Shown here: positions 19,469 to 27,874 of the stretch, piece by piece
Numbering within the stretch: position 1 is the first letter of the stretch
Layout of the letters: the number at the start of each line of letters is the position of its first letter
NCBI GenBank assembly: GCA_963733485.1
Contig: CAVTDL010000005.1
Coordinates: forward strand, 31,733-95,732
DNA from: an uncultured delta proteobacterium
Lineage (GTDB): Bacteria; Myxococcota; Myxococcia; Myxococcales; Anaeromyxobacteraceae
DNA: 64,000 nt
Reading direction: 5' to 3'
Notes under the pieces: model-generated
Told to the model about the DNA's origin: nothing
What the model saw: the letters and a program-made list of their open reading frames with translations, nothing else
Databases searched by the model: none
Program-made: the position numbers and the translations under genes

Positions 19469-20335
19469 TCACGGGATCCACAGGTCCAGCACGACCGGCC
19501 GGTGATCCGAGGCCGCCGACACGTCGGGCCCACCCTCGACCGCGGAGCGGACGACCGCCGCCCCGTCGGCTCGTGGCACGAGCAGGTGATCGAGGATCTC
19601 GCGCGCGCCTCCGCCCGACCAGGTCCAGGCCGCCTCGAGCGGTGGCGCCGCGGCTGGTCCGATCCAGGCGCCGTCGCCGAGGAGCGCCGCCAGCGATGGG
19701 GCGGTCGGGGAGTCGTTCAGGTCTCCACCCGCGAGGACCAGCGCCGCTCCCGGCGCGAGCCCGTCCGCCAGGGCTCGCATCCGCGCCGCCTGGCGGGCGC
19801 GGCGGGCGCCGTCGTCGGAGAGCGGCGAGCTGAAGTGGCTCCCCACCGCGACGACGCGCCGCCCGGCCACCTCGGCGTGCACCTCGACGCAGTCCCTCGG
19901 CCAGAGCGGACCGCCCTCCAGGTCCCGGTCATCCCGGTGACTCACGTAGTCGCGGACCGAGAGGCGGGAGAGCGCCGCCACGTCGATGCCGCGGGGATCG
20001 TCCCCCTCGACCAGCCGCGCCTCCGGATAGCCAGCCCGCGCGGCGAGCCGCTCGAGCAGCGGGAGGTTCTCCACCTCCTGGAGCAGCACCAGGTCCGCGT
20101 CGAGCCGGACCAGCACCGCCGCGACGCGGTCGAGCTTCGCCTCCACCTCGGCGGGCGACGGCACCGTGTCGCCCTCGCCCGGCGGGAGGAGCCGATCCTC
20201 GGCGTCGAAGAGATCGTGGACGTTCCAGGTGGCGACCCGGATCAGCGCCGCCGCCGGCCCGGGGGTGGCGCGCGACGGCGGGAGCGGCTCGCAGGCGAGG
20301 AGGGAGAGCGAGAGGGCGGCGAGGAGCGGGCGCAT
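19469..20335 (-). CDS. Endonuclease/exonuclease/phosphatase family lipoprotein
   Basis: Lipobox LLAC; VATWNVHDL, LQEVEN, GGDLND, LDHLL, SDHRPV. Confidence 0.9.
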   Translation of the reverse strand: MRPLLAALSLSLLACEPLPPSRATPGPAAALIRVATWNVHDLFDAEDRLLPPGEGDTVPSPAEVEAKLDRVAAVLVRLDADLVLLQEVENLPLLERLAARAGYPEARLVEGDDPRGIDVAALSRLSVRDYVSHRDDRDLEGGPLWPRDCVEVHAEVAGRRVVAVGSHFSSPLSDDGARRARQAARMRALADGLAPGAALVLAGGDLNDSPTAPSLAALLGDGAWIGPAAAPPLEAAWTWSGGGAREILDHLLVPRADGAAVVRSAVEGGPDVSAASDHRPVVLDLWIP

Positions 20336-20479
20336 GCGGCGGGCGCTCGCAAGCGCTGCGCCGCCGGCTGTTCCCCGCGCCGCGCGGAGGGCGACCACGG
20401 GAGGACCGGGCCGCGCACCGCCCTGGTCGCGCCGAGGACGGAGGCGGACCGGACGGCCTCGGCCCTCGGCCCTCGCCCA

Positions 20480-22171
20480 TCAATAGGACGCCGAGAGGGC
20501 GGCGTGCCCGGTCACCCCGTAGGGCGTGCTCGAGCCGCCCTCCCCGGCGGCGGCGTCGAATGCCCCTCGCCCCATGACCGAGAGCCTGAGCGCCACGTGC
20601 GGACCGAGGTCCGCGAACGCGCTCGCGAGCAGGCCGACGTCGTCGCGGTCCTCCCCGAGCGACCTCTCGTGCGCCCAGCTCCCGCGGACCAGCAGCCGCA
20701 GCGCCGCCCACGGCCGCGCCGTGAGCTGGGCGTAGGCGCTCCGCCCCTCCAGCCAGCCCGACTCCTCGAGGTAGCCGAGCGTGAGCCCGCCGCGGTCGCC
20801 CAGGAGCCGCGGCAGCACCAGCTCCGGCCCGACCCAGCGCCGGTCGAGCCCGCTCCCGACGTCGCGCGAGAGCCCGCCCGTCGCGCCGAGCCGGAGCCAG
20901 CGCGCGAGCTCCACGCTCGCGAAGCCGTCGGCCAATCGCGAGCGCCCGGGGAACGCCGGCGGGTCGAGCGGCTGCGGCCAGGCGAGCCCCGCGTGGCGGA
21001 AGCTCCCGCCCACGAGGAGCCCGTTCACCGGCCGGACCGCGAGATCCAGCCGGGCGCCGTCGAGCTTCCCCTTCGCGTCCACCTTGCCGCCGGTCCCGAG
21101 GTGCGCCTCGCCGGAGAGGTCGAGCCGCCTCAGGAACAGGCGGCCCGTGAGCGAGCCCTCGAGCCGCGTGCCCAGCTCCGGAGAGCGGACCACCGCGACC
21201 CGTCCCTCCTGCCGGAGCGACGCGCCGCGGCCGAGGGTGCGGTCCAGGATCCAGTAGCCGCCGCCGGTGGCGCGCGACGAGGTGGGCTCGGTCGTGTCCG
21301 GCTCCGGCACCAGCCCGCCGAACGCGCCGGCCTCCGCGCGGAGCTCGCCGAGCCTACCGCGCGCCCCGGCCATGGCGCCGTCGAACACGGTCGCGCCGGG
21401 GATGGTCCAGGGGAGCACCCGCCCGGCGGCGAGCAGCAGGGTGCGCCCCGGGGTGGCGGTGAGCTGCGCCTGCCAGAGGTAGAGCTGGGTGTCGTCCCGG
21501 GGACGGAAGCGTGGCGCGTCGCGCCGGATCCAGCGCTCGGCGCGCGCGTCGAGGTCGAGCCGCAGCCCCGCGCCGAGCTCGGCGTCGCGCAGGACCAGGT
21601 CCACCGCCGCGCGGTCCGAGGTGCCGGCGGTCGAGGCGTGCCAGACGTCTCCCCGCGCGGTGACCTCGGCGGTGCGCCCCCTCGGCGCGGCGGCCGCGCC
21701 CTCCGCCGCGCGGAACTCGACCAGCGGGAGCGGGGCCGCGACGACGGCCGCCAGGCGGCGCTCCAGCTCGCCCTCGCCGGGCGGCGGGGGGAGCAGCCGC
21801 GGGGCGGCGGGGGGCGGCGCGGCCGCGAAGCGGAAGGTGTCCCCGGGGCGCAGGCCGGTCGCGGGGCAGCTCGCGTGGTGCGGCGCCGCCAGGTCGACCG
21901 TGCAGCGCCCGGCGAGCGCCGCCCCGCGCCGCAGCTCGAGCTCGGTCCCCACCGCGAGCCCCTCGTCGGCCCCGGCGTCGAGGTAGGCCCGCGCGGCCGT
22001 GATGTGGACCACCTGTCCGGTCCCCCGCGGCCGGTCGGCGGCCCGCGCGGGCTCGGCGGGGGCGGCGACCGCGGCCGCCGGGGGAGCCTGCGGCGGGCGC
22101 CGCGCCGGGCGCTTCGCCCCGGCCGTCGGCGCGGCGGCGAGCAGCAGCGAGACGATGGCGGCGGTGATCAC
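20480..22171 (-). CDS. Probable outer-membrane beta-barrel (porin) of the multiheme cytochrome operon
   Basis: Signal peptide VITAAIVSLLLAAA, N-terminal soluble region, long amphipathic beta-strand region, C-terminal ...GHAALSASY aromatic end. Start overlaps the stop of the upstream cytochrome. Confidence 0.7.
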   Translation of the reverse strand: MITAAIVSLLLAAAPTAGAKRPARRPPQAPPAAAVAAPAEPARAADRPRGTGQVVHITAARAYLDAGADEGLAVGTELELRRGAALAGRCTVDLAAPHHASCPATGLRPGDTFRFAAAPPPAAPRLLPPPPGEGELERRLAAVVAAPLPLVEFRAAEGAAAAPRGRTAEVTARGDVWHASTAGTSDRAAVDLVLRDAELGAGLRLDLDARAERWIRRDAPRFRPRDDTQLYLWQAQLTATPGRTLLLAAGRVLPWTIPGATVFDGAMAGARGRLGELRAEAGAFGGLVPEPDTTEPTSSRATGGGYWILDRTLGRGASLRQEGRVAVVRSPELGTRLEGSLTGRLFLRRLDLSGEAHLGTGGKVDAKGKLDGARLDLAVRPVNGLLVGGSFRHAGLAWPQPLDPPAFPGRSRLADGFASVELARWLRLGATGGLSRDVGSGLDRRWVGPELVLPRLLGDRGGLTLGYLEESGWLEGRSAYAQLTARPWAALRLLVRGSWAHERSLGEDRDDVGLLASAFADLGPHVALRLSVMGRGAFDAAAGEGGSSTPYGVTGHAALSASY

Positions 22172-22953
22172 TGGCCCTCCTGCCGGACGCCGGTGGGGTG
22201 GCACTCGAGACACGACGCGGTGGCGAAGCGGTATCCGCCCACGCCCCCGTGGCGGGAGTCGGTGTCCGCCTGACCGTGGCAGCCGAGGCAGTCCTTCGTG
22301 GAGAAGTCGGCCGCGAAGGGCTTGTCGGCCCGCGCCGCCGGGTGGCAGCGGAGGCAGGCGCCGTTCTGGCCGAGGTGCTTCCCGGGCGCGACGATCAGGA
22401 AGGGGACGTGTGCCGCCAGCCGGTCGACCTGGGCGTCTCCGTGGCAGCGCACGCAGCGGGCCGACTCGAACGCGTAATCGCCCACCCCGGCGTGGGCGGC
22501 GCCCATCTCCGCTTGCCCGTGGTCGTGGCAGCCGGCGCACCCGAGCGCGCTCCGGTTGGCGGGGTCCACGTGGCACTCCCCGCAGGCGGCGCCGGCGTGG
22601 GCGCCCGAGGAGATGGGGAACAGCGCGGCGTGGTTCACCCCGATGCCGTCGCGGTGGCAGCCGTAGCAGGCGTCGCTCGCGAACCGGTAGCTCGCCACCG
22701 CCGCGTGGCGCTGGGCGAGCGCCGCCTCGTCGACGTGGTCCCCGGTGTGGCAGTGGAGGCAGTCGTAGCGGGCGAAGGTGTCGAAGGTGCCGTGGCAGTC
22801 GTCGCAGGTGGCGACCGCGTGCGCCGAGCCGGCGGCGATGGGGAACCACCGCGTCCCGTGCTGCTCCGGCGTGGGGGCGGTGAGCCACGGGGCGCCGCCC
22901 TCGCCGGCGCACCCGGCGCAGAGCGCCGCCGCGAGGATCCCGAGCCCCCTCAT
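22168..22953 (-). CDS. Multiheme cytochrome c lipoprotein, 9 CxxCH
   Basis: MRGLGILAAALCAGC lipobox; CDDCH, CLHCH, CYGCH, CGECH, CAGCH, CVRCH, CLRCH, CLGCH, CLECH. Confidence 0.92.
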   Translation of the reverse strand: MRGLGILAAALCAGCAGEGGAPWLTAPTPEQHGTRWFPIAAGSAHAVATCDDCHGTFDTFARYDCLHCHTGDHVDEAALAQRHAAVASYRFASDACYGCHRDGIGVNHAALFPISSGAHAGAACGECHVDPANRSALGCAGCHDHGQAEMGAAHAGVGDYAFESARCVRCHGDAQVDRLAAHVPFLIVAPGKHLGQNGACLRCHPAARADKPFAADFSTKDCLGCHGQADTDSRHGGVGGYRFATASCLECHPTGVRQEGQ

Positions 22954-23824
22954 CTCGAGCCTCCCGCGCGGAGCCCGCTCTCGCCGACCGAGAAGCGGTG
23001 GCACTCGTAGCACTTGCGGTTCACCAGCTGGAACCCGGCCACGCCGCCGTGCTCGCCGGCCACGCCGCCGTGGCATCGCAGGCAGTTGGCGGTGTCGCTG
23101 GCGCAGGTGAACGGCTGGCCGTAGTCCACCGCCGGCAGGCTGGAGTGGCAGTCGCGGCACCGGATCCCGGCGTGGTGCCCGGAGCGGATGTCGAAGCAGG
23201 CCTGGTGGGCGGGGAGCGAGGCGGGCGAGAAGCGCCAGGCGCCGTGGCAGCCGCGGCAGTCGTCCGGGAACCCTGCCTGGGCGTGATCGACGGCGGCGCC
23301 GCCCGCGCCGGCGCGCAGCCAGTCGGCCTCGTGGCAGCCGATGCACCGCGGCGTGGGCCGGGCAAAGCCCCGGTCGCGGCGATCTCCGTGGCACGACTCG
23401 CACGGCACGACCGCGTGGCGGCCGGCGAGCGGGAAGGCGGTCCGGCGGTGGTCCTCGGGCCCGAAGGTGGGGGTGGACCAGGCGGTGGGCGCGTGGCAGT
23501 TCCCGCAGCGCGGCCCGAGCCTCCCCGCGTGGACGTCGCGGTGACAGGCGCCGCAGGCGCGCGGCACCGGGTCGGCGAAGGTCCCGGTCGCGTGGCACCC
23601 GCGGCACGCGGCCTGCTGGTGGCGACCCTCGAGCGGGAAGCCGGTCCGGTCGTGCGCGAAGCGGACGTCCTTCCACCCCGGCGGCGGTGTGGCAGGCGGC
23701 GCAGTCGGTGTCGCCCGCGTGCGCGCCGGCCGCCGGCGGCCGGGCCCCGAGATCCTGCGGCGGACATCGCGGAGCCCGGCCCCGTGAGCGCCAGCGTCGA
23801 GAGGAGCAAGAGGAGCGCTCTCAT
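22950..23824 (-). CDS. Multiheme cytochrome c, about 10 CxxCH; frameshifted near the N-terminus
   Basis: Signal MRALLLLLSTLAL; CAACH in the shifted frame near 23700, then CRGCH, CGACH, CGNCH, CESCH, CIGCH, CRGCH, CRDCH, CLRCH, CYECH. Confidence 0.88.
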
Positions 23825-25635
23825 GGCGCATACCCCCGGAACGCGCCGCGGTGGAAGTCGGCGTGGCACCCCTGGCACGTGGTCGGCACCGGCCGGTACC
23901 GAGTCACCGCCGCGCCCTCCACCTGGACGCGCGGGTGACACCTCTCGCAGGCGACCTGGCGGTGCTTGCCGTCGAGCGCGAACTTCGTGAACGGCGGCGC
24001 GTGGGCGAACCGGTCGGCGGGCTTCCAGGCCTCCGTCCCGTGGCAGCGGCCGCAGTCGGACCCCTTCCCCGGCCCGGCGAGCTGGCCCGCGTGGACGTCG
24101 GCGTGGCAGCCGGCGCAGGCGAGCGGGAGCGGCCGGTAGCGGACCACCCCCGACGCGTCGGGCCGGTGACAGGAGGCGCAGGCCGCGCGCGCGTGCTTGC
24201 CGTCGAGGGCGAAGCGCGTGTCGCGGGTGTGGTCGAGCCGCACCTTCCGGAACGACTCGAGGCCGTGGCACGCCGCGCAGCCCTCGGCCCGCGCCCGCGC
24301 GTCGAGCTGGCCGCCGTGCGGGTCGCGGTGGCAGGTGCGGCAGTCGCTCGCCTTCGGGAGGTCGTAGACGGCGAGGCTCACCTTCACCGGGCGGCGCTTG
24401 CGCGCGAGCTCGCTGCGCACGGCGGCCGGCATCTTCGCGGCGAGCCGCGCGTCCTTCGGGTGGCAGCGGGCGCAGGCGACCGCGCGGTGAGCGCCCTCCA
24501 GCCGGTAGGACGCGCGGGCGTGGTCCTCGAGCTCGTAGCGGGCCGGGACGAACCCCTCGACGCCGTGGCAGCGATCGCAGGTCTGGCCGGGCCCGGCGCG
24601 CGGGGCCGCCCCGGCGGCGGCGTCGAGCTGGCCGAGGTGGGCGTCGGCGTGGCAGTCGGTGCACTGCCCGAAGGCGATCCCCTTGTAGCGCGCCTTCGCG
24701 CCGGGCCAGGGGCCGTGGCAGGCCTCGCAGGACGCCTCGAGGTGCGCGCCTCGGAGCGGGTAGCGCGTCTTCTCGTGGAAGGCGCGCTTCGCGCCGGCGC
24801 CCACCACCTTCGCCCAGCCCTCGGTGGTGTGGCACCCGGCGCACGCGGCGCCGAAGCGGTCCTGGTGAGGGTCCTTGTGGCAGTCGGTGCAGCGCTGGAA
24901 CGGCAGCTCGCGGTAGCGGACGAAGGCGCCCGCGCGCACCGGCGCGGTCGCGCCGGGCGGCGCGCCGCGGGGCGCCTCCTCCACCGCCGGGTGGCACCGC
25001 GCGCAGGCCACCTTCGCGTGCTTCCCCTCCAGCCGGTAGGCCGTCCGGGCGTGGTCGAAGCGCGGCACCGGCTTCCAGGCGTCCTCGGAGTGGCAGCGCT
25101 GGCACTCGCCGCCGAGCTGGCCGCGGTGCTCGTCGAAGTGGCACGCCGCGCAGGCCTGCGGCGCACCGAGCAGCGTCCTCCGCCCCGGCTGCTTGCCGAG
25201 CAGCTCCTTCACCGCCGGGTCGGCCACGAGCCGCGGGTCGTGGCAGCGCGCGCACTCGACCCGCCGGTGCTTGCCCCGGAGCGCGAAGCCGGTGCGCGCG
25301 TGATCGAAGGCCTTCTGCCCCGCCCTCCCCCAGTCCACCAGCGGGAAGTCCCGTCCCTGGTGCTCGTGGTGGCACCCCTGGCAGGCCTCGCGCTCGGCGG
25401 GCGAGAGGCGCCCGTGGAGGCCGCGCCCCGCGGCGACGCGCGGCGCGAGCTCGGCGTGGCAGGCGAGGCAGGTGGCCGCGGCGAGCTGCTGGCCGGCCGC
25501 GTGGCACCTGGTGCACTGCCCGAGCCCCTCGAGCGACTGATGGGCGCGGGAGAGCGGGCCGGGGGAGAACACGTCGGGGCGCGCCTGGCCGGCGGACAGG
25601 AGGGTGACGAGGAGCAGCGGGACGAAGCGTGTCAT
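23821..25635 (-). CDS. Large multiheme cytochrome c, 20 CxxCH in tri-heme repeats
   Basis: Signal MTRFVPLLLVTLLSAGQA, SPGPLSRAH; 20 CxxCH counted; repeated FDH..T.F.L.GKH..V.CxxCH units. Confidence 0.95.
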   Translation of the reverse strand: MTRFVPLLLVTLLSAGQARPDVFSPGPLSRAHQSLEGLGQCTRCHAAGQQLAAATCLACHAELAPRVAAGRGLHGRLSPAEREACQGCHHEHQGRDFPLVDWGRAGQKAFDHARTGFALRGKHRRVECARCHDPRLVADPAVKELLGKQPGRRTLLGAPQACAACHFDEHRGQLGGECQRCHSEDAWKPVPRFDHARTAYRLEGKHAKVACARCHPAVEEAPRGAPPGATAPVRAGAFVRYRELPFQRCTDCHKDPHQDRFGAACAGCHTTEGWAKVVGAGAKRAFHEKTRYPLRGAHLEASCEACHGPWPGAKARYKGIAFGQCTDCHADAHLGQLDAAAGAAPRAGPGQTCDRCHGVEGFVPARYELEDHARASYRLEGAHRAVACARCHPKDARLAAKMPAAVRSELARKRRPVKVSLAVYDLPKASDCRTCHRDPHGGQLDARARAEGCAACHGLESFRKVRLDHTRDTRFALDGKHARAACASCHRPDASGVVRYRPLPLACAGCHADVHAGQLAGPGKGSDCGRCHGTEAWKPADRFAHAPPFTKFALDGKHRQVACERCHPRVQVEGAAVTRYRPVPTTCQGCHADFHRGAFRGYAP

Positions 25636-27874
25636 CGTCGGAGGAGCCCGTAGCCGAGGTAGAGGGAGAGCCCGATGTGGGCCGCGATGGTGAGGACCAG
25701 GAAGCCCGCCAGCGAGGCGTGGAAGACGCGCCAGCCGCGCAGCAGCCGCTTGAGCGAGGCGTAGAACCGGATCTGCCAGCGGAGCCGGCCGAGCCGCACC
25801 ACCGCGGCGCGGAAGGCGGCGAAGTGATCGGTCCCGTGGAACCGCCGCCGGAGGCGGAGCAGCCGCACCCGCAAGAGGAGCGACTCGGCGGGCATGAGGA
25901 CGAAGAGCAGCGCGAGCGAGCCGGCCTCGACCGGCGCGGTGGCGCGCGCGAGCAGCGCCTCCGCCGGCGCGCCCGCCTCCCGCAGCAGCGGGCCGAGCTC
26001 GTCGCGCAGCCGCTCGAAGCGCGCGAGCAGGTCGGCCAGCTCGACCGCCTTGCCGCCGTCGGAGGGGACGGCGCCGTAGATGAAGCGCCCCACCACCCCG
26101 GTGCAGACCACCACCCCGAGCGCGGTGGCGGTCCCGGTGGCGAGCAGGTTGTTCGACTGAAACGCCGCGTGGAAGGCGATCACGAGCGGGCTCATGAAGC
26201 CCACGAAGACGTGGAAGTCGAGCCAGCCCCGGATCCCGCCCAGCGACGCGAGCCGCTTCCACCGCTTGCGGATCGCGTACAGGAAGTTGGAGAGCATGAA
26301 CGCGGTGGCGGCGATCCCCACCCCGTGCCCCCAGGGACCGGCCGGCTTGAGCGACGGGTGCAGCGGGGAGCGGAGCCGGTCCACCCGCGCGAGCGGGTAG
26401 TACTCCCGCCCCTGCCAGGCGAGGAGCGCGAGGATCGAGAGCCCTGCCGCGGCGAGCAGCGCGCGCGTCACCCGCCGCCGGGCCCGCTCGCCCCGCTCGC
26501 GCTCCGCCGCCGCCTGCCGCCGCTGCGCTCGTATGCCGCCGACCGCGGCGATCTCTTCGCCGCGCGGCGCGCCGGGGGCCTCCCCGTGGTAGCGCCGCAG
26601 CGCCACCCCGACCTGGGCCAGGAACTCCAGCGGCAGCTCGCCGCCGATGCTCACCACCACGTAGTCGTTCTCGAGGGTGGCGACGCGCCCGCTCACCCGG
26701 AGCTCCACCTCGCGCGGCCGGATGGCGACCACCTCCGACCCGAGCAGCAGGCGCAGGCGGCCGGCCGTCCCCAGCGCCTCGGCCTTGCGCCGGTTCGCCT
26801 CGCGGCACCGGGACAGCTCCGCGCCGCGGTACGACAGCGTCACGCGGGCGGTGGAGGACTCGGCGAGCTGCACGGCGGCCTCGATGGCGGAGTCGCCGCC
26901 GCCCACCACGAGGACGTCGTCGCCGTCGAACTGCTCGGGCTCGGTGAGCCCCTGCAGCACCTTCTCGAGCTCCTCCCCCGGCACGCCCAGCCGGCGGGGC
27001 GTCCCGCGGCGTCCGGTGGCGAGGACGACCTTGGAGGCCTCCACGAGGCCCCTGGAGGTGCGGAGCACGAAGCGCCCGTCCTCGCCGTCGATCCCCTCGA
27101 CCTTGACCCCCTCCTCGACCTCGACGCCGCTGCGGACCAGCGCGCGCCGCCAGGTGGCGAGCAGCTCCTCCTTGCGGATGCTCCGCTTGCCGAGCGTGCC
27201 CACCAGCGGCAGCTCCACCGGCTCGGTCATGGTGAGCTTCTTGCGCGGATAGTGCGCGATCGAGCCGCCCACCGTGTCCTGCTCGAGGAGCCGGAGCGGC
27301 ACGCCGCGCGCCTTCAGGCCGATGGCCGCGGCGAGCCCCGCCGGACCTGCGCCCACCACCGCCACGGGCGCCCCGCCGCGCGGCGCGATCTCGGCGAGGC
27401 GCTCCGCCACCTCCAGCCCCTGGACGACGGCGTTCCTGATGAGGCCCATCCCCCCGAGCTCGCCCACCACGTGGACGCCGGCGCGCGAGGACTCGAACGC
27501 CCCGTCCACCTCCGGCAGGTCGACGCCGCGCTCGGCGCTGCCGAAGACCAGCCGGATCGCGCCCACCGGGCACTCCGCGGCGCAGCGCCCGTGGCCGATG
27601 CAGTGGTCGGCGTGGACGAGGTGGGCGGCGCCGCCCACGATGCCGAGGATGTCGCCCTCGGGACAGGCGCGCAGGCACGAGAGGCTGCCGATGCAGACGT
27701 CCGGGTCGATGACGGGGTGGAGCGACCGCGGCGGGCGCCGCCCGCCGGCGGTCCGGCCTCGATCGCGGCCGCGTCGCGCCGCTGCCGCGCCCAGCGGCGG
27801 CCGAGGTGACCACCTGCCAGCAGGCCGACGGAGAGGAGGGATCCGGAGACGATCCAGACGGTGGCGAGATCCAT
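25632..27874 (-). CDS. Membrane-bound FAD/NAD(P)-dependent oxidoreductase: TM anchor, dicluster ferredoxin domain, TrxR-like domain, di-heme-b TM domain; frameshift near 27750
   Basis: CIGSLSCLRACP and CIGHGRCAAECP; VVGAGPAG; VVGGGDSAIE..SYRG; C-terminal TMs with WLDFH-x13-H and WRVFH-x13-H. Confidence 0.88.

What the first reader, a model, noticed from the sequence alone, without database searches (positions are those of the whole stretch)
20480..27874. Candidate quinone-independent NAD(P)H-to-surface electron conduit: flavo-FeS-cytochrome b fusion, about 39 c-hemes and a porin in one operon
Seen: five minus-strand genes, each start overlapping the previous stop (25635/25632, 23824/23821, 22953/22950, 22171/22168). 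They encode an inner-membrane oxidoreductase, secreted 20- and 10-heme cytochromes, a 9-heme lipoprotein and a probable beta-barrel. Known: porin-cytochrome conduits (MtrCAB, Geobacter Pcc/Ext) are fed from the quinol pool by CymA, ImcH or CbcL. Inference: here the inner-membrane component has its own cytoplasmic NAD(P)H/FAD domain and transmembrane hemes. The operon could therefore wire pyridine nucleotides directly across both membranes, either for extracellular reduction or, in reverse, for electron uptake to NADP+. Gene order follows the putative electron path. I do not know of a characterised system with this architecture.
Basis: partly seen in the sequence, partly recalled or inferred. 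Interest (0 to 1): 0.92.

Follow-up and report, generated by a model that had tools for sequence, protein, structure and literature searches.

The report
NAD(P)H-fed porin-cytochrome electron conduit
An Anaeromyxobacter genome carries a five-gene operon that looks like a complete electron wire from cytoplasmic NAD(P)H to the cell surface; it is a fused-gene version of the published but never tested "PCC3" cytochrome cluster, and the fusion suggests such clusters are fed by NAD(P)H and not by quinones.

Summary
The five minus-strand genes exist at the stated coordinates, with 4-base start/stop overlaps and 20 + 10 + 9 = 39 CXXCH motifs. As given, however, the window has three single-base indels: one in gene A near 27755 and two in gene C at 23676 and 23758. 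Near-identical contigs from public soil metagenomes lack all three, and every relative is intact, so they are most likely assembly errors.

- **Gene A:** membrane anchor, two Fe-S motifs, a thioredoxin-reductase-fold FAD/NAD(P)H domain and a 5-helix domain with two invariant WX3HX13H motifs (probably two b hemes).
- **Gene E:** models as a 22-strand outer-membrane barrel.
- **Linkage:** the A-to-cytochrome link holds across at least ten phyla, as a fusion, as two adjacent genes, or divergently beside PCC3-like clusters.

The membrane domain matches the "conserved inner membrane protein" of PCC3/PCC4 clusters (He et al. 2017). Those papers proposed a quinone link and do not mention the flavoprotein.

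The architecture is supported. Quinone independence, direction of flow and the extracellular partner are untested. This scan has reached the same reading on other DNA several times. I rate it a new variant of a known kind. It can be tested directly in A. dehalogenans 2CP-C, which has the same operon.

The parts
25632..27874 (-). Gene A: 747-aa inner-membrane flavo-Fe-S / di-heme-b fusion protein (frame broken in the window near 27755)
   Evidence: Pfam Fer4_10 5e-11, Pyr_redox_3 1e-38. Homologues are about 745 aa and intact, the nearest 91% identical. The corrected reading gives 747 aa. AF2 model of the 91% homologue has pLDDT 83.5.
27803..27874 (-). N-terminal membrane-anchor helix of A, followed by an Arg-rich stretch (positive inside, so the flavo-Fe-S module is cytoplasmic)
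   Evidence: Translation; helix 3-43 in the model. The topology is inferred from the positive-inside rule.
27755..27755 (.). Site of the single-base deficit that shifts gene A's frame
   Evidence: DNA alignment to G006/G014. One contig of run X1 has an extra C behind 27755. The frame is restored by that base.
27540..27728 (-). Two ferredoxin-type Fe-S motifs, CxxSxxCxxxCP and CxxHxxCxxxCP
   Evidence: Six Cys are invariant in 32 homologues. The second ligand position is S (17) or C (15) in motif 1, and H in 27 of 32 in motif 2.
26568..27383 (-). Thioredoxin-reductase-fold FAD and NAD(P)H domain without a redox CxxC
   Evidence: Invariant GxGxxG and GGGDSA..E motifs and R350. Best structural matches: Bdr/YpdA 7a76 (Z 20.4) and B. 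subtilis ferredoxin-NADP+ reductase 3lzw (Z 17.9).
25635..26468 (-). Five-helix membrane domain with two WX3HX13H motifs and TGxxG: putative di-heme cytochrome b, equivalent to the PCC3/PCC4 'IMP'
   Evidence: W/H/H invariant on two helices in 32 fused proteins and in 22 fused plus stand-alone proteins. Stand-alone IMPs hit the A profile at 1e-29 to 1e-53. The motif definition is in PMC5566968.
23821..25635 (-). Gene B: secreted 20-heme cytochrome c, candidate periplasm-spanning wire
   Evidence: 20 CXXCH and a signal peptide. Homologous to the first 17-26-heme cytochrome next to the membrane module in all arrangements.
22950..23824 (-). Gene C: secreted 10-heme cytochrome c (two extra bases in the window, at 23676 and 23758)
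   Evidence: 79% identical to the G006/G014 orthologue.
22168..22953 (-). Gene D: 9-heme cytochrome c, probable lipoprotein
   Evidence: 9 CXXCH. Homologues have canonical lipoboxes, LALAC and ILGAC. D is absent from the otherwise syntenic clusters of G025 and G019.
20480..22171 (-). Gene E: outer-membrane 22-strand beta-barrel with a small N-terminal beta domain
   Evidence: AF2 pLDDT 79.4, 22 strands over residues 167-562. All top fold matches are outer-membrane barrels: Foldseek prob 1.00; TonB-dependent/SusC barrels Z 18-20 and MtrB 6r2q_B Z 15.2. It ends in an aromatic residue.

Best explanation
The operon encodes a PCC3-type porin-cytochrome conduit. Its inner-membrane entry protein is fused to its own cytoplasmic electron-input module.

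Proposed path (inferred): cytoplasmic NAD(P)H reduces FAD in the thioredoxin-reductase-fold domain of A. Electrons then pass through two Fe-S clusters to a cytoplasmic-side heme b and a periplasmic-side heme b. Each heme is held by one His from each of two helices. From there electrons move to the 20-heme cytochrome B, which could span the periplasm. They then pass to the 10-heme cytochrome C, probably seated in the 22-strand barrel E. The last step is the 9-heme lipoprotein D at the surface, which reduces an extracellular acceptor such as a metal oxide or humic substance.

Shown here: the domains, the invariant motifs, the barrel fold and the conserved gene linkage.

Inferred only: cofactor occupancy, topology, direct heme b to heme c transfer without quinone, outward direction, and the nature of the acceptor.

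Because outward electron flow from NAD(P)H bypasses proton-pumping steps and runs with the membrane potential, the system would act as an electron-disposal valve or as a reductase for extracellular substrates. It would not be an energy-conserving chain.
For: - **Domains and folds:** domain content of A; flavodomain fold Z 20.4 to the NADPH enzyme Bdr and 17.9 to ferredoxin-NADP+ reductase. A barrel is predicted for E.
- **Invariant residues:** FAD and NAD(P)H motifs, six Fe-S Cys, and W551/H555/H569 plus W715/H719/H733 are invariant or nearly so across 32 homologues down to 30% identity.
- **Stand-alone membrane proteins:** the same W/H/H pattern and GxxG occur in stand-alone membrane proteins of other phyla.
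- **Heme b clan:** sub-threshold Pfam hits of the membrane domain converge on di-heme cytochrome b families: DUF4405 in 11/22, Ni_hydr_CYTB in 7/22, Ferric_reduct in 5/22.
- **Topology:** the Arg-rich segments after TM0, between TM2 and TM3, and between TM4 and TM5 all fall on one side.
- **Synteny in relatives:** A-B-C-(D)-E is conserved in five relatives.
- **Synteny in distant genomes:** homologues at 34-38% identity are also followed by 17-23-heme cytochromes and an E-like protein.
- **Three arrangements:** the flavo-Fe-S module and the membrane module occur fused, as adjacent genes, or divergently transcribed next to 21-24-heme and 37-67-heme cytochromes. This is a Rosetta-stone type of link.
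- **Phylum sample:** 28 of 30 Myxococcota loci chosen only by the membrane domain have it in a roughly 750-aa frame followed by a cytochrome with at least 15 hemes.
Against: - There is no biochemical, genetic or expression evidence for any member. No RNA run held the stretch.
- The membrane domain has no significant match to any solved structure by sequence profile. A profile-profile comparison with MsrQ-type ferric-reductase domains gave probability 1.25%. Heme b binding therefore rests on motifs and weak Pfam hits.
- The published model for the homologous PCC3/PCC4 membrane protein is a quinone-active cytochrome b (PMC5566968). A quinone site cannot be excluded from sequence.
- Both Fe-S motifs lack the canonical second Cys in this organism, so cluster type and potentials are unknown.
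- PCC3 clusters are common in Fe(II) oxidisers, where inward flow was proposed.
- Genes A and C are frame-broken in the sequence as given.
Confidence: 0.55

Rival explanations
1. The conduit is quinone-coupled. The di-heme b domain exchanges electrons with the menaquinone pool, as proposed for the PCC3/PCC4 inner membrane protein. The flavo-Fe-S module would be an additional or alternative input, or would make A an NAD(P)H:menaquinone oxidoreductase built like di-heme succinate:quinone reductases.
For: This is the published hypothesis for the homologous membrane protein (PMC5566968). The combination of flavoprotein, Fe-S clusters and di-heme b is also the layout of type-B succinate:quinone oxidoreductases (my knowledge). 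Nothing in the sequence excludes a quinone pocket.
Against: The membrane module is always beside, or fused to, the flavo-Fe-S module. It is always followed directly by a roughly 20-heme secreted cytochrome. That pattern is simplest if heme b hands electrons to heme c. No known quinone-binding family was matched.
Confidence: 0.2
2. The wire runs inward. Electrons from an extracellular donor (Fe(II) minerals, a cathode, a partner cell) are taken up and used to reduce NAD(P)+.
For: PCC3 clusters were found in Fe(II)-oxidising bacteria and were modelled as uptake systems (PMC5566968, PMC10734462). Multiheme wires are reversible in principle.
Against: Fe(II)/Fe(III) couples are far more positive than NAD(P)+/NAD(P)H. 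Moving electrons inward also works against the membrane potential, so the reaction would be uphill twice with no visible coupling device (my inference). Anaeromyxobacter is known as a metal reducer (PMC4245776).
Confidence: 0.08
3. The system ends in the periplasm or serves another purpose, such as detoxifying reduction of soluble metals, metalloids or oxidants. The barrel would then be a substrate channel and not a sheath around a cytochrome.
For: No component has been localised. E matches substrate-transporting barrels such as TonB-dependent receptors as well as or better than MtrB. D is missing from some otherwise syntenic clusters.
Against: An E-like barrel gene is embedded between or after the cytochrome genes across phyla. 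A lipoprotein cytochrome accompanies it here. This is the porin-cytochrome pattern.
Confidence: 0.1
4. In this organism the operon is decaying. The three frameshifts are real, and A and C are pseudogenes.
For: The window as given has the three indels. The correction at 27755 rests on one low-depth contig.
Against: Contigs from three runs lack both extra bases in C. The out-of-frame N-terminal segments still encode the conserved helix, signal peptide and first heme motif. There are no stops or other damage. Another gene of this MAG is also frame-broken, and the MAG scores 68.65% complete although it is in only 20 contigs.
Confidence: 0.05

Closest known systems
PCC3 (and PCC4) porin-cytochrome c gene clusters of He, Barco, Emerson & Roden 2017 (PMC5566968); Gallionellaceae survey (PMC10734462)
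   Same: - An inner-membrane protein with five helices, WX3HX13H on helices 3 and 5, and a small-G-x-x-G motif on helix 4.
- A periplasmic cytochrome of about 21 hemes next to it (20 here).
- Further multiheme cytochromes and an outer-membrane barrel.
- Stand-alone membrane proteins from proteobacterial clusters of this layout match A's C-terminal domain at 1e-29 to 1e-34, and their first cytochrome matches B.
   Different: - Here the membrane protein is the C-terminal domain of a 747-aa protein that also carries two Fe-S motifs and an FAD/NAD(P)H domain.
- The published descriptions list four genes, call the membrane protein quinone-active, and do not mention a flavoprotein.
- The surface cytochrome here is small: 9 hemes against a published range of 10-35 and a median of 34.
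- PCC3 itself has never been tested.
- I could not compare with the named type cluster of Sideroxydans ES-1 directly.
NADPH oxidases / ferric reductases (NOX, SpNOX, FRE, STEAP) and the E. coli Fre-MsrQ-MsrP system (PMC5676040, PMC11031084, PMC12525009)
   Same: Same logic: cytoplasmic NAD(P)H, then a flavin, then two b hemes stacked across the membrane on His pairs of two helices, then an acceptor on the outer side. Fre-MsrQ shows that bacteria can feed a periplasmic enzyme this way.
   Different: - The dehydrogenase here has the thioredoxin-reductase fold plus Fe-S clusters, not the FNR fold, and it sits N-terminal to the membrane domain.
- The membrane domain gave no significant profile match to MsrQ-type domains and only sub-threshold Pfam hits.
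- The acceptor is a 39-heme chain and a barrel, not O2, a metal ion or MsrP.
MtrCAB (Shewanella) and Pcc/Ext conduits (Geobacter), fed by CymA, ImcH, CbcL
   Same: An outer-membrane barrel, a periplasmic decaheme-size cytochrome and a lipoprotein cytochrome encoded together. E superposes on MtrB at Z 15.2.
   Different: - No family-level sequence match: the DmsE/MtrA model scored 48.8 bits against a cut-off of 192, and E has no Pfam or NCBIfam hit.
- E has 22 strands, not 26.
- The inner-membrane partner is not a quinol dehydrogenase family member.
- The two-gene Pcc cluster already reported in Anaeromyxobacter, with a 12-heme periplasmic cytochrome (Adeh_3392), has a different gene and heme content from this operon.
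YpdA/Bdr and thioredoxin-reductase-type ferredoxin-NADP+ reductases
   Same: Best structural and sequence matches of the flavodomain: 7a76 Z 20.4 with 29% identity, and 3lzw Z 17.9. TIGR04018 scored 4.7e-43.
   Different: The score is below the family cut-off (147 against 340 bits). There is no redox disulfide. The domain is membrane-anchored and fused to Fe-S and heme modules.

Membership tests
PCC3-type porin-cytochrome cluster (He et al. 2017) | Inner membrane protein with five TM helices, WX3HX13H on TM3 and TM5, SGXXG on TM4 | tested here: met
   W551-H555-H569 and W715-H719-H733 are invariant or nearly invariant; T592-G593-x-x-G596 has T in place of S. The helix order comes from the model. 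Here it is a domain, not a separate protein.
PCC3-type porin-cytochrome cluster (He et al. 2017) | Adjacent periplasmic multiheme cytochrome with about 21-27 hemes | tested here: met
   B has 20 CXXCH and a signal peptide. It matches the 21-24-heme neighbours of stand-alone membrane proteins.
PCC3-type porin-cytochrome cluster (He et al. 2017) | Extracellular multiheme cytochrome (published range 10-35 hemes or more) | tested here: inconclusive
   D has 9 hemes and a probable lipobox. Its location is not testable here, and the heme number is just below the published range.
PCC3-type porin-cytochrome cluster (He et al. 2017) | Outer-membrane beta-barrel porin in the cluster | tested here: met
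   22-strand barrel model with pLDDT 79; only barrel matches were found.
PCC3-type porin-cytochrome cluster (He et al. 2017) | Sequence homology to the named type clusters (Sideroxydans ES-1, Leptothrix SP-6) | not tested
Homology was shown only to clusters of the same layout in Rubrivivax, Thiodiazotropha, Hyphomicrobium and other MAGs.
MtrCAB | MtrA/DmsE-family decaheme cytochrome and MtrB/PioB-family barrel | tested here: not met
   TIGR03508 hit only B, at 48.8 bits against a cut-off of 192.2. There was no MtrB_PioB or other family hit for E. The structural similarity of E to MtrB is at the general barrel level (Z 15.2).
NOX / ferric-reductase transmembrane domain (PF01794) | Significant match to the Ferric_reduct profile | tested here: inconclusive
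   There was no hit for the window's protein. 5 of 22 family members hit below threshold (best 3.6e-5), and more hit DUF4405 (11). hhalign against an MsrQ alignment gave probability 1.25%.
NOX / ferric-reductase transmembrane domain (PF01794) | FNR-fold FAD/NADPH dehydrogenase domain C-terminal to the heme domain | tested here: not met
   The dehydrogenase has the thioredoxin-reductase fold and is N-terminal.
Thioredoxin reductase / YpdA (Bdr) family | Family-level score; for TrxR, also the redox-active CxxC | tested here: not met
   TIGR04018 scored 147 bits against a cut-off of 339.9, and TIGR01292 scored 55.8 against 343. The only invariant Cys are the six Fe-S ligands.

The most novel reading that the evidence does not exclude
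PCC3-type conduits, here and in the many phyla that carry them, are quinone-independent electron-export wires driven directly by NAD(P)H. The drive comes through a dedicated Fe-S flavoprotein and a di-heme b membrane module. That would overturn the published quinone-linked, Fe(II)-uptake model and add a third kind of inner-membrane entry point to extracellular electron transfer.
Probability: 0.4. Interest if true: 0.85.

Novelty: new variant of a known kind. Interest (0 to 1): 0.62.

Why it matters
All characterised porin-cytochrome conduits of diderm bacteria take electrons from the quinol pool. A wire that starts at NAD(P)H would be a different bioenergetic solution: fast disposal of reducing power without energy conservation. 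It would also change how PCC3 genes are read in metagenomes, where they are now counted as candidate iron-oxidation markers.

The fusion in Anaeromyxobacter is the clearest genetic argument for that link. The idea can therefore be tested with ordinary genetics and biochemistry.

Tried and rejected
- **Solved structures:** a sequence-profile search of the membrane domain against all PDB chains found nothing meaningful (best E 0.056, coiled-coil proteins).
- **FRD homology:** profile-profile comparison with MsrQ-type ferric-reductase domains collected from the order gave probability 1.25%. A first attempt used badly extracted frames and was discarded.
- **Membrane-domain fold:** the whole-protein structure search of A was filled by flavoprotein matches, so the membrane domain's fold was not tested.
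- **Protein atlas:** the search returned only unnamed clusters or clusters named 'pyridine nucleotide-disulfide oxidoreductase'.
- **Shorter relatives:** the search for shorter relatives of the membrane domain returned mostly contig-end fragments.
- **Literature:** searches for a flavoprotein or NAD(P)H link to multiheme/porin clusters, and for Adeh_25xx-27xx locus tags, found nothing.
- **Promoters and terminators:** consensus scans found none, which is uninformative at 75% G+C.
- **Expression:** no RNA holder was listed among the sequencing runs.
- **Known Anaeromyxobacter Pcc cluster:** the cluster in Shi et al. 2014 (two genes, 12-heme periplasmic cytochrome Adeh_3392) differs in gene and heme content from this operon.
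- **Downstream gene:** the endonuclease/exonuclease/phosphatase-family gene is conserved only in the closest relatives, so it was not counted as part of the system.

Full report
**Origin and quality of the sequence**

The window is part of contig 5 of a 4.38-Mb, 20-contig metagenome-assembled genome scored 68.65% complete. G+C is about 75%. Its genus includes two single-contig genomes of 5,013,479 and 5,029,329 bp. By my recollection these sizes are those of Anaeromyxobacter dehalogenans 2CP-C and 2CP-1. The closest named homologues are from Anaeromyxobacter.

**Checking the observation**

Five minus-strand reading frames end at 25632, 23821, 22950, 22168 and 20480. The start codons at 25635, 23824, 22953 and 22171 each overlap the previous stop by four bases. 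B has 20 CXXCH motifs and D has 9.

- 27874 to 25632 is 2243 bases, not a multiple of three. The N-terminal membrane helix of A lies in a different frame from the rest of the gene.
- 23824 to 22950 is 875 bases. In C, the signal peptide, the first heme motif and the other nine motifs lie in three frames.

Several lines of evidence indicate that these shifts are assembly errors:
- In the two complete relatives both genes are single frames.
- DNA alignment places a one-base deficit near 27755 and single extra bases near 23676 and 23758, the latter in a G run.
- Public soil-metagenome contigs nearly identical to the window lack the two extra bases in three runs. They carry an extra C behind 27755 in one contig.
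- With these three changes A is 747 aa, the length of its 91%-identical intact relatives. C becomes 290 aa with a signal peptide and ten CXXCH.
- A ferric-reductase-family gene elsewhere in this genome is also split between frames.

I therefore read the indels as consensus errors. A real, very recent inactivation is not excluded.

**Gene A**

Pfam finds a 4Fe-4S dicluster domain and a pyridine-nucleotide oxidoreductase domain, and nothing for the last 280 residues.

The AlphaFold model of the 91% homologue, built on 32 aligned sequences, has mean pLDDT 83.5. It shows these elements in order:
- an N-terminal helix;
- the Fe-S and flavin domains;
- a long helix leading into five membrane helices, with a helical insertion between the fourth and fifth.

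Flavodomain:
- It superposes best on bacillithiol disulfide reductase YpdA (Z 20.4, 29% identity). Next come AhpF, thioredoxin reductases and thioredoxin-reductase-type ferredoxin-NADP+ reductases (Z 17-19).
- The FAD and NAD(P)H glycine motifs and an Arg after the second Rossmann strand are invariant.
- There is no redox CxxC.
- The only invariant cysteines are six Fe-S ligands.

Fe-S motifs:
- Both motifs lack the canonical second Cys in this organism.
- That position is Ser in about half of the family (17 of 32) and Cys in the other 15.
- In the second motif it is His in 27 of 32.

Membrane domain:
- W551, H555 and H569 on one helix are invariant. On the last helix W715 and H733 are invariant, and H719 is present in 31 of 32. 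G593 and G596 lie on the helix between them.
- This is the WX3HX13H, SGXXG, WX3HX13H signature that He et al. (2017) described for the "conserved inner membrane protein" of their PCC3 and PCC4 clusters. They interpreted it as a di-heme cytochrome b (PMC5566968).
- The Arg/Lys-rich segments after the N-terminal helix, between helices 2 and 3, and between helices 4 and 5 fall on the same side. This places the Fe-S/flavin module in the cytoplasm, and one His pair near each membrane face (inference).

Support for heme b is indirect. Members of the family give sub-threshold hits to DUF4405, prokaryotic cytochrome b561 and the ferric-reductase domain. There is no PDB sequence match and no profile-profile match to MsrQ-type domains.

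**Cytochromes and barrel**

B, C and D hit only generic multiheme families.
- B and the corrected C have cleavable signal peptides.
- D's homologues carry canonical lipoboxes, whereas the window's version (LCAGC) is atypical.

E has no family hit. It models with pLDDT 79.4 as a 22-strand barrel preceded by a small beta domain.
- All Foldseek matches are outer-membrane barrels.
- The exhaustive structural search gives TonB-dependent and SusC-type 22-strand barrels at Z 18-20, and MtrB at Z 15.2.

**Linkage**

- **Close relatives:** A-B-C-D-E is syntenic in three same-genus genomes. A-B-C-E, without D, is found in two other genera of the order.
- **Distant homologues:** homologues of A at 34-38% identity are followed by 17-23-heme cytochromes and an E-like protein.
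- **Species-representative genomes:** a scan found relatives in Acidobacteriota, Planctomycetota, Bacteroidota, Gemmatimonadota, Nitrospirota, Ignavibacteriota, Marinisomatota, Omnitrophota, Eisenbacteria and several proteobacterial classes.

Three arrangements appear:
1. The fusion, in Anaeromyxobacter, other Myxococcota and Planctomycetota.
2. Two adjacent genes in the order membrane protein then flavoprotein, followed by a 20-heme cytochrome, further cytochromes and an E-like barrel.
3. The flavoprotein gene divergently transcribed from membrane protein, a cytochrome of about 21-24 hemes and a 37-67-heme cytochrome. This occurs in Hyphomicrobium, Rubrivivax, Thiodiazotropha and other Proteobacteria, and it is the PCC3 layout.

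The stand-alone membrane proteins match A's profile at 1e-29 to 1e-53 and keep the invariant residues. Their neighbouring cytochrome matches B.

In an evenly drawn sample of 251 Myxococcota genomes the membrane domain was found in 80, and in 6 of 13 genomes of the genus. Among the 30 best loci, chosen by that domain alone, 28 have it in a frame of roughly 750 aa followed on the same strand by a frame with at least 15 CXXCH. One of these loci, L122 from G217, belongs to an unpublished genome; without it the count is 27 of 29.

The second refutation condition (homologues not linked to cytochromes) is therefore not met either.

**What is known**

PCC3 and PCC4 were defined from genomes only. PCC3 comprises a porin, an extracellular cytochrome, a periplasmic cytochrome with a median of 21 hemes, and the inner membrane protein. 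That protein was proposed to exchange electrons with quinones during Fe(II) oxidation.

The 2017 paper does not contain the words FAD, pyridine or ferredoxin. It describes unnamed "other redox-active proteins" and a separate Fe-S protein only for PCC4. The later Gallionellaceae and Sideroxydans papers still list four genes and call the complex untested.

The Pcc cluster already reported for Anaeromyxobacter has two genes, with a 12-heme periplasmic cytochrome (Adeh_3392). Its gene and heme content differ from this operon.

Transmembrane electron export from NAD(P)H through two b hemes is established for NOX enzymes, including bacterial SpNOX. It has also been described for Fre-MsrQ-MsrP (PMC5676040, PMC11031084, PMC12525009).

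**Interpretation**

The most economical reading is a PCC3-type conduit whose entry module is wired to NAD(P)H. The fusion, the gene pairs and the divergent pairs together argue that the flavoprotein and the membrane protein work as one unit.

Direction is inferred. Outward flow is favoured by the low potential of NAD(P)H, by the membrane potential and by the metal-reducing habit of the genus. Inward flow to NADP+ would be uphill on both counts.

Quinone independence is plausible but untested, and the published quinone model remains a live rival.

**Earlier notes of this scan**

After I had reached this reading, the scan's own index showed that follow-up agents had come to the same conclusion on other genomes. 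One of those is an Anaeromyxobacter-family four-gene version. These are not independent evidence. They do show that the system is recurrent and not peculiar to this window.

**Verdict**

The operon is real, conserved and coherent. Its mechanism is reasonable but unproven.

The system is a fused variant of a described, uncharacterised cluster type. The flavoprotein link, which the PCC3 literature I read does not mention, is the point of interest. It is directly testable in cultured A. dehalogenans.

Noticed in passing
window 27540-27728: Both ferredoxin motifs lack the canonical second cysteine (CxxSxxCxxxCP and CxxHxxCxxxCP). Across 32 homologues the first position is Ser in 17 and Cys in 15, and the second is His in 27. 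This suggests [3Fe-4S] or His-ligated clusters.
   Followed up: partly
G000:C1:598925-599270 (loci L098, L099): A ferric-reductase-family (MsrQ-like) gene of the same genome is split into two overlapping frames with an internal stop. This fits frequent indel errors in this assembly.
   Followed up: no
loci L023, L026, L032, L042, L048, L051, L055: Where the two modules are separate adjacent genes, the membrane-protein gene comes first and the flavoprotein gene second. That is the reverse of the domain order in the fusion, so the fusion is not a simple read-through of this arrangement.
   Followed up: no
proteins P0301, P0304, P0308-P0310, P0320 and others: Proteins of 950-1380 aa match only residues 30-435 of A (anchor, Fe-S, flavodomain). 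The same input module is therefore fused to other, unexamined C-terminal parts.
   Followed up: no
Myxococcota genomes (rows with E about 1e-40, profile positions 46-291): A second, more distant group of membrane-domain matches sits in open frames of 640-1500 aa. It may be a paralogous fusion family.
   Followed up: no
window 19469-20398 (-): An endonuclease/exonuclease/phosphatase-family gene starts 80 bases after the barrel gene, in the same frame. It is conserved there only in the two closest complete genomes.
   Followed up: partly
G025:C10:24593-26722 and G025:C3:72300-74405: One genome of the order carries two full-length copies of gene A (61% and 57% identical to the window's).
   Followed up: no
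window 27384-27530 (A residues about 118-165): A conserved GELGGMGLI.NA segment with invariant G133, G138 and E139 precedes the first Rossmann motif. It lies outside the range aligned to thioredoxin-reductase-fold structures (which starts at 165-168), so the flavodomain may be rearranged relative to TrxR.
   Followed up: no
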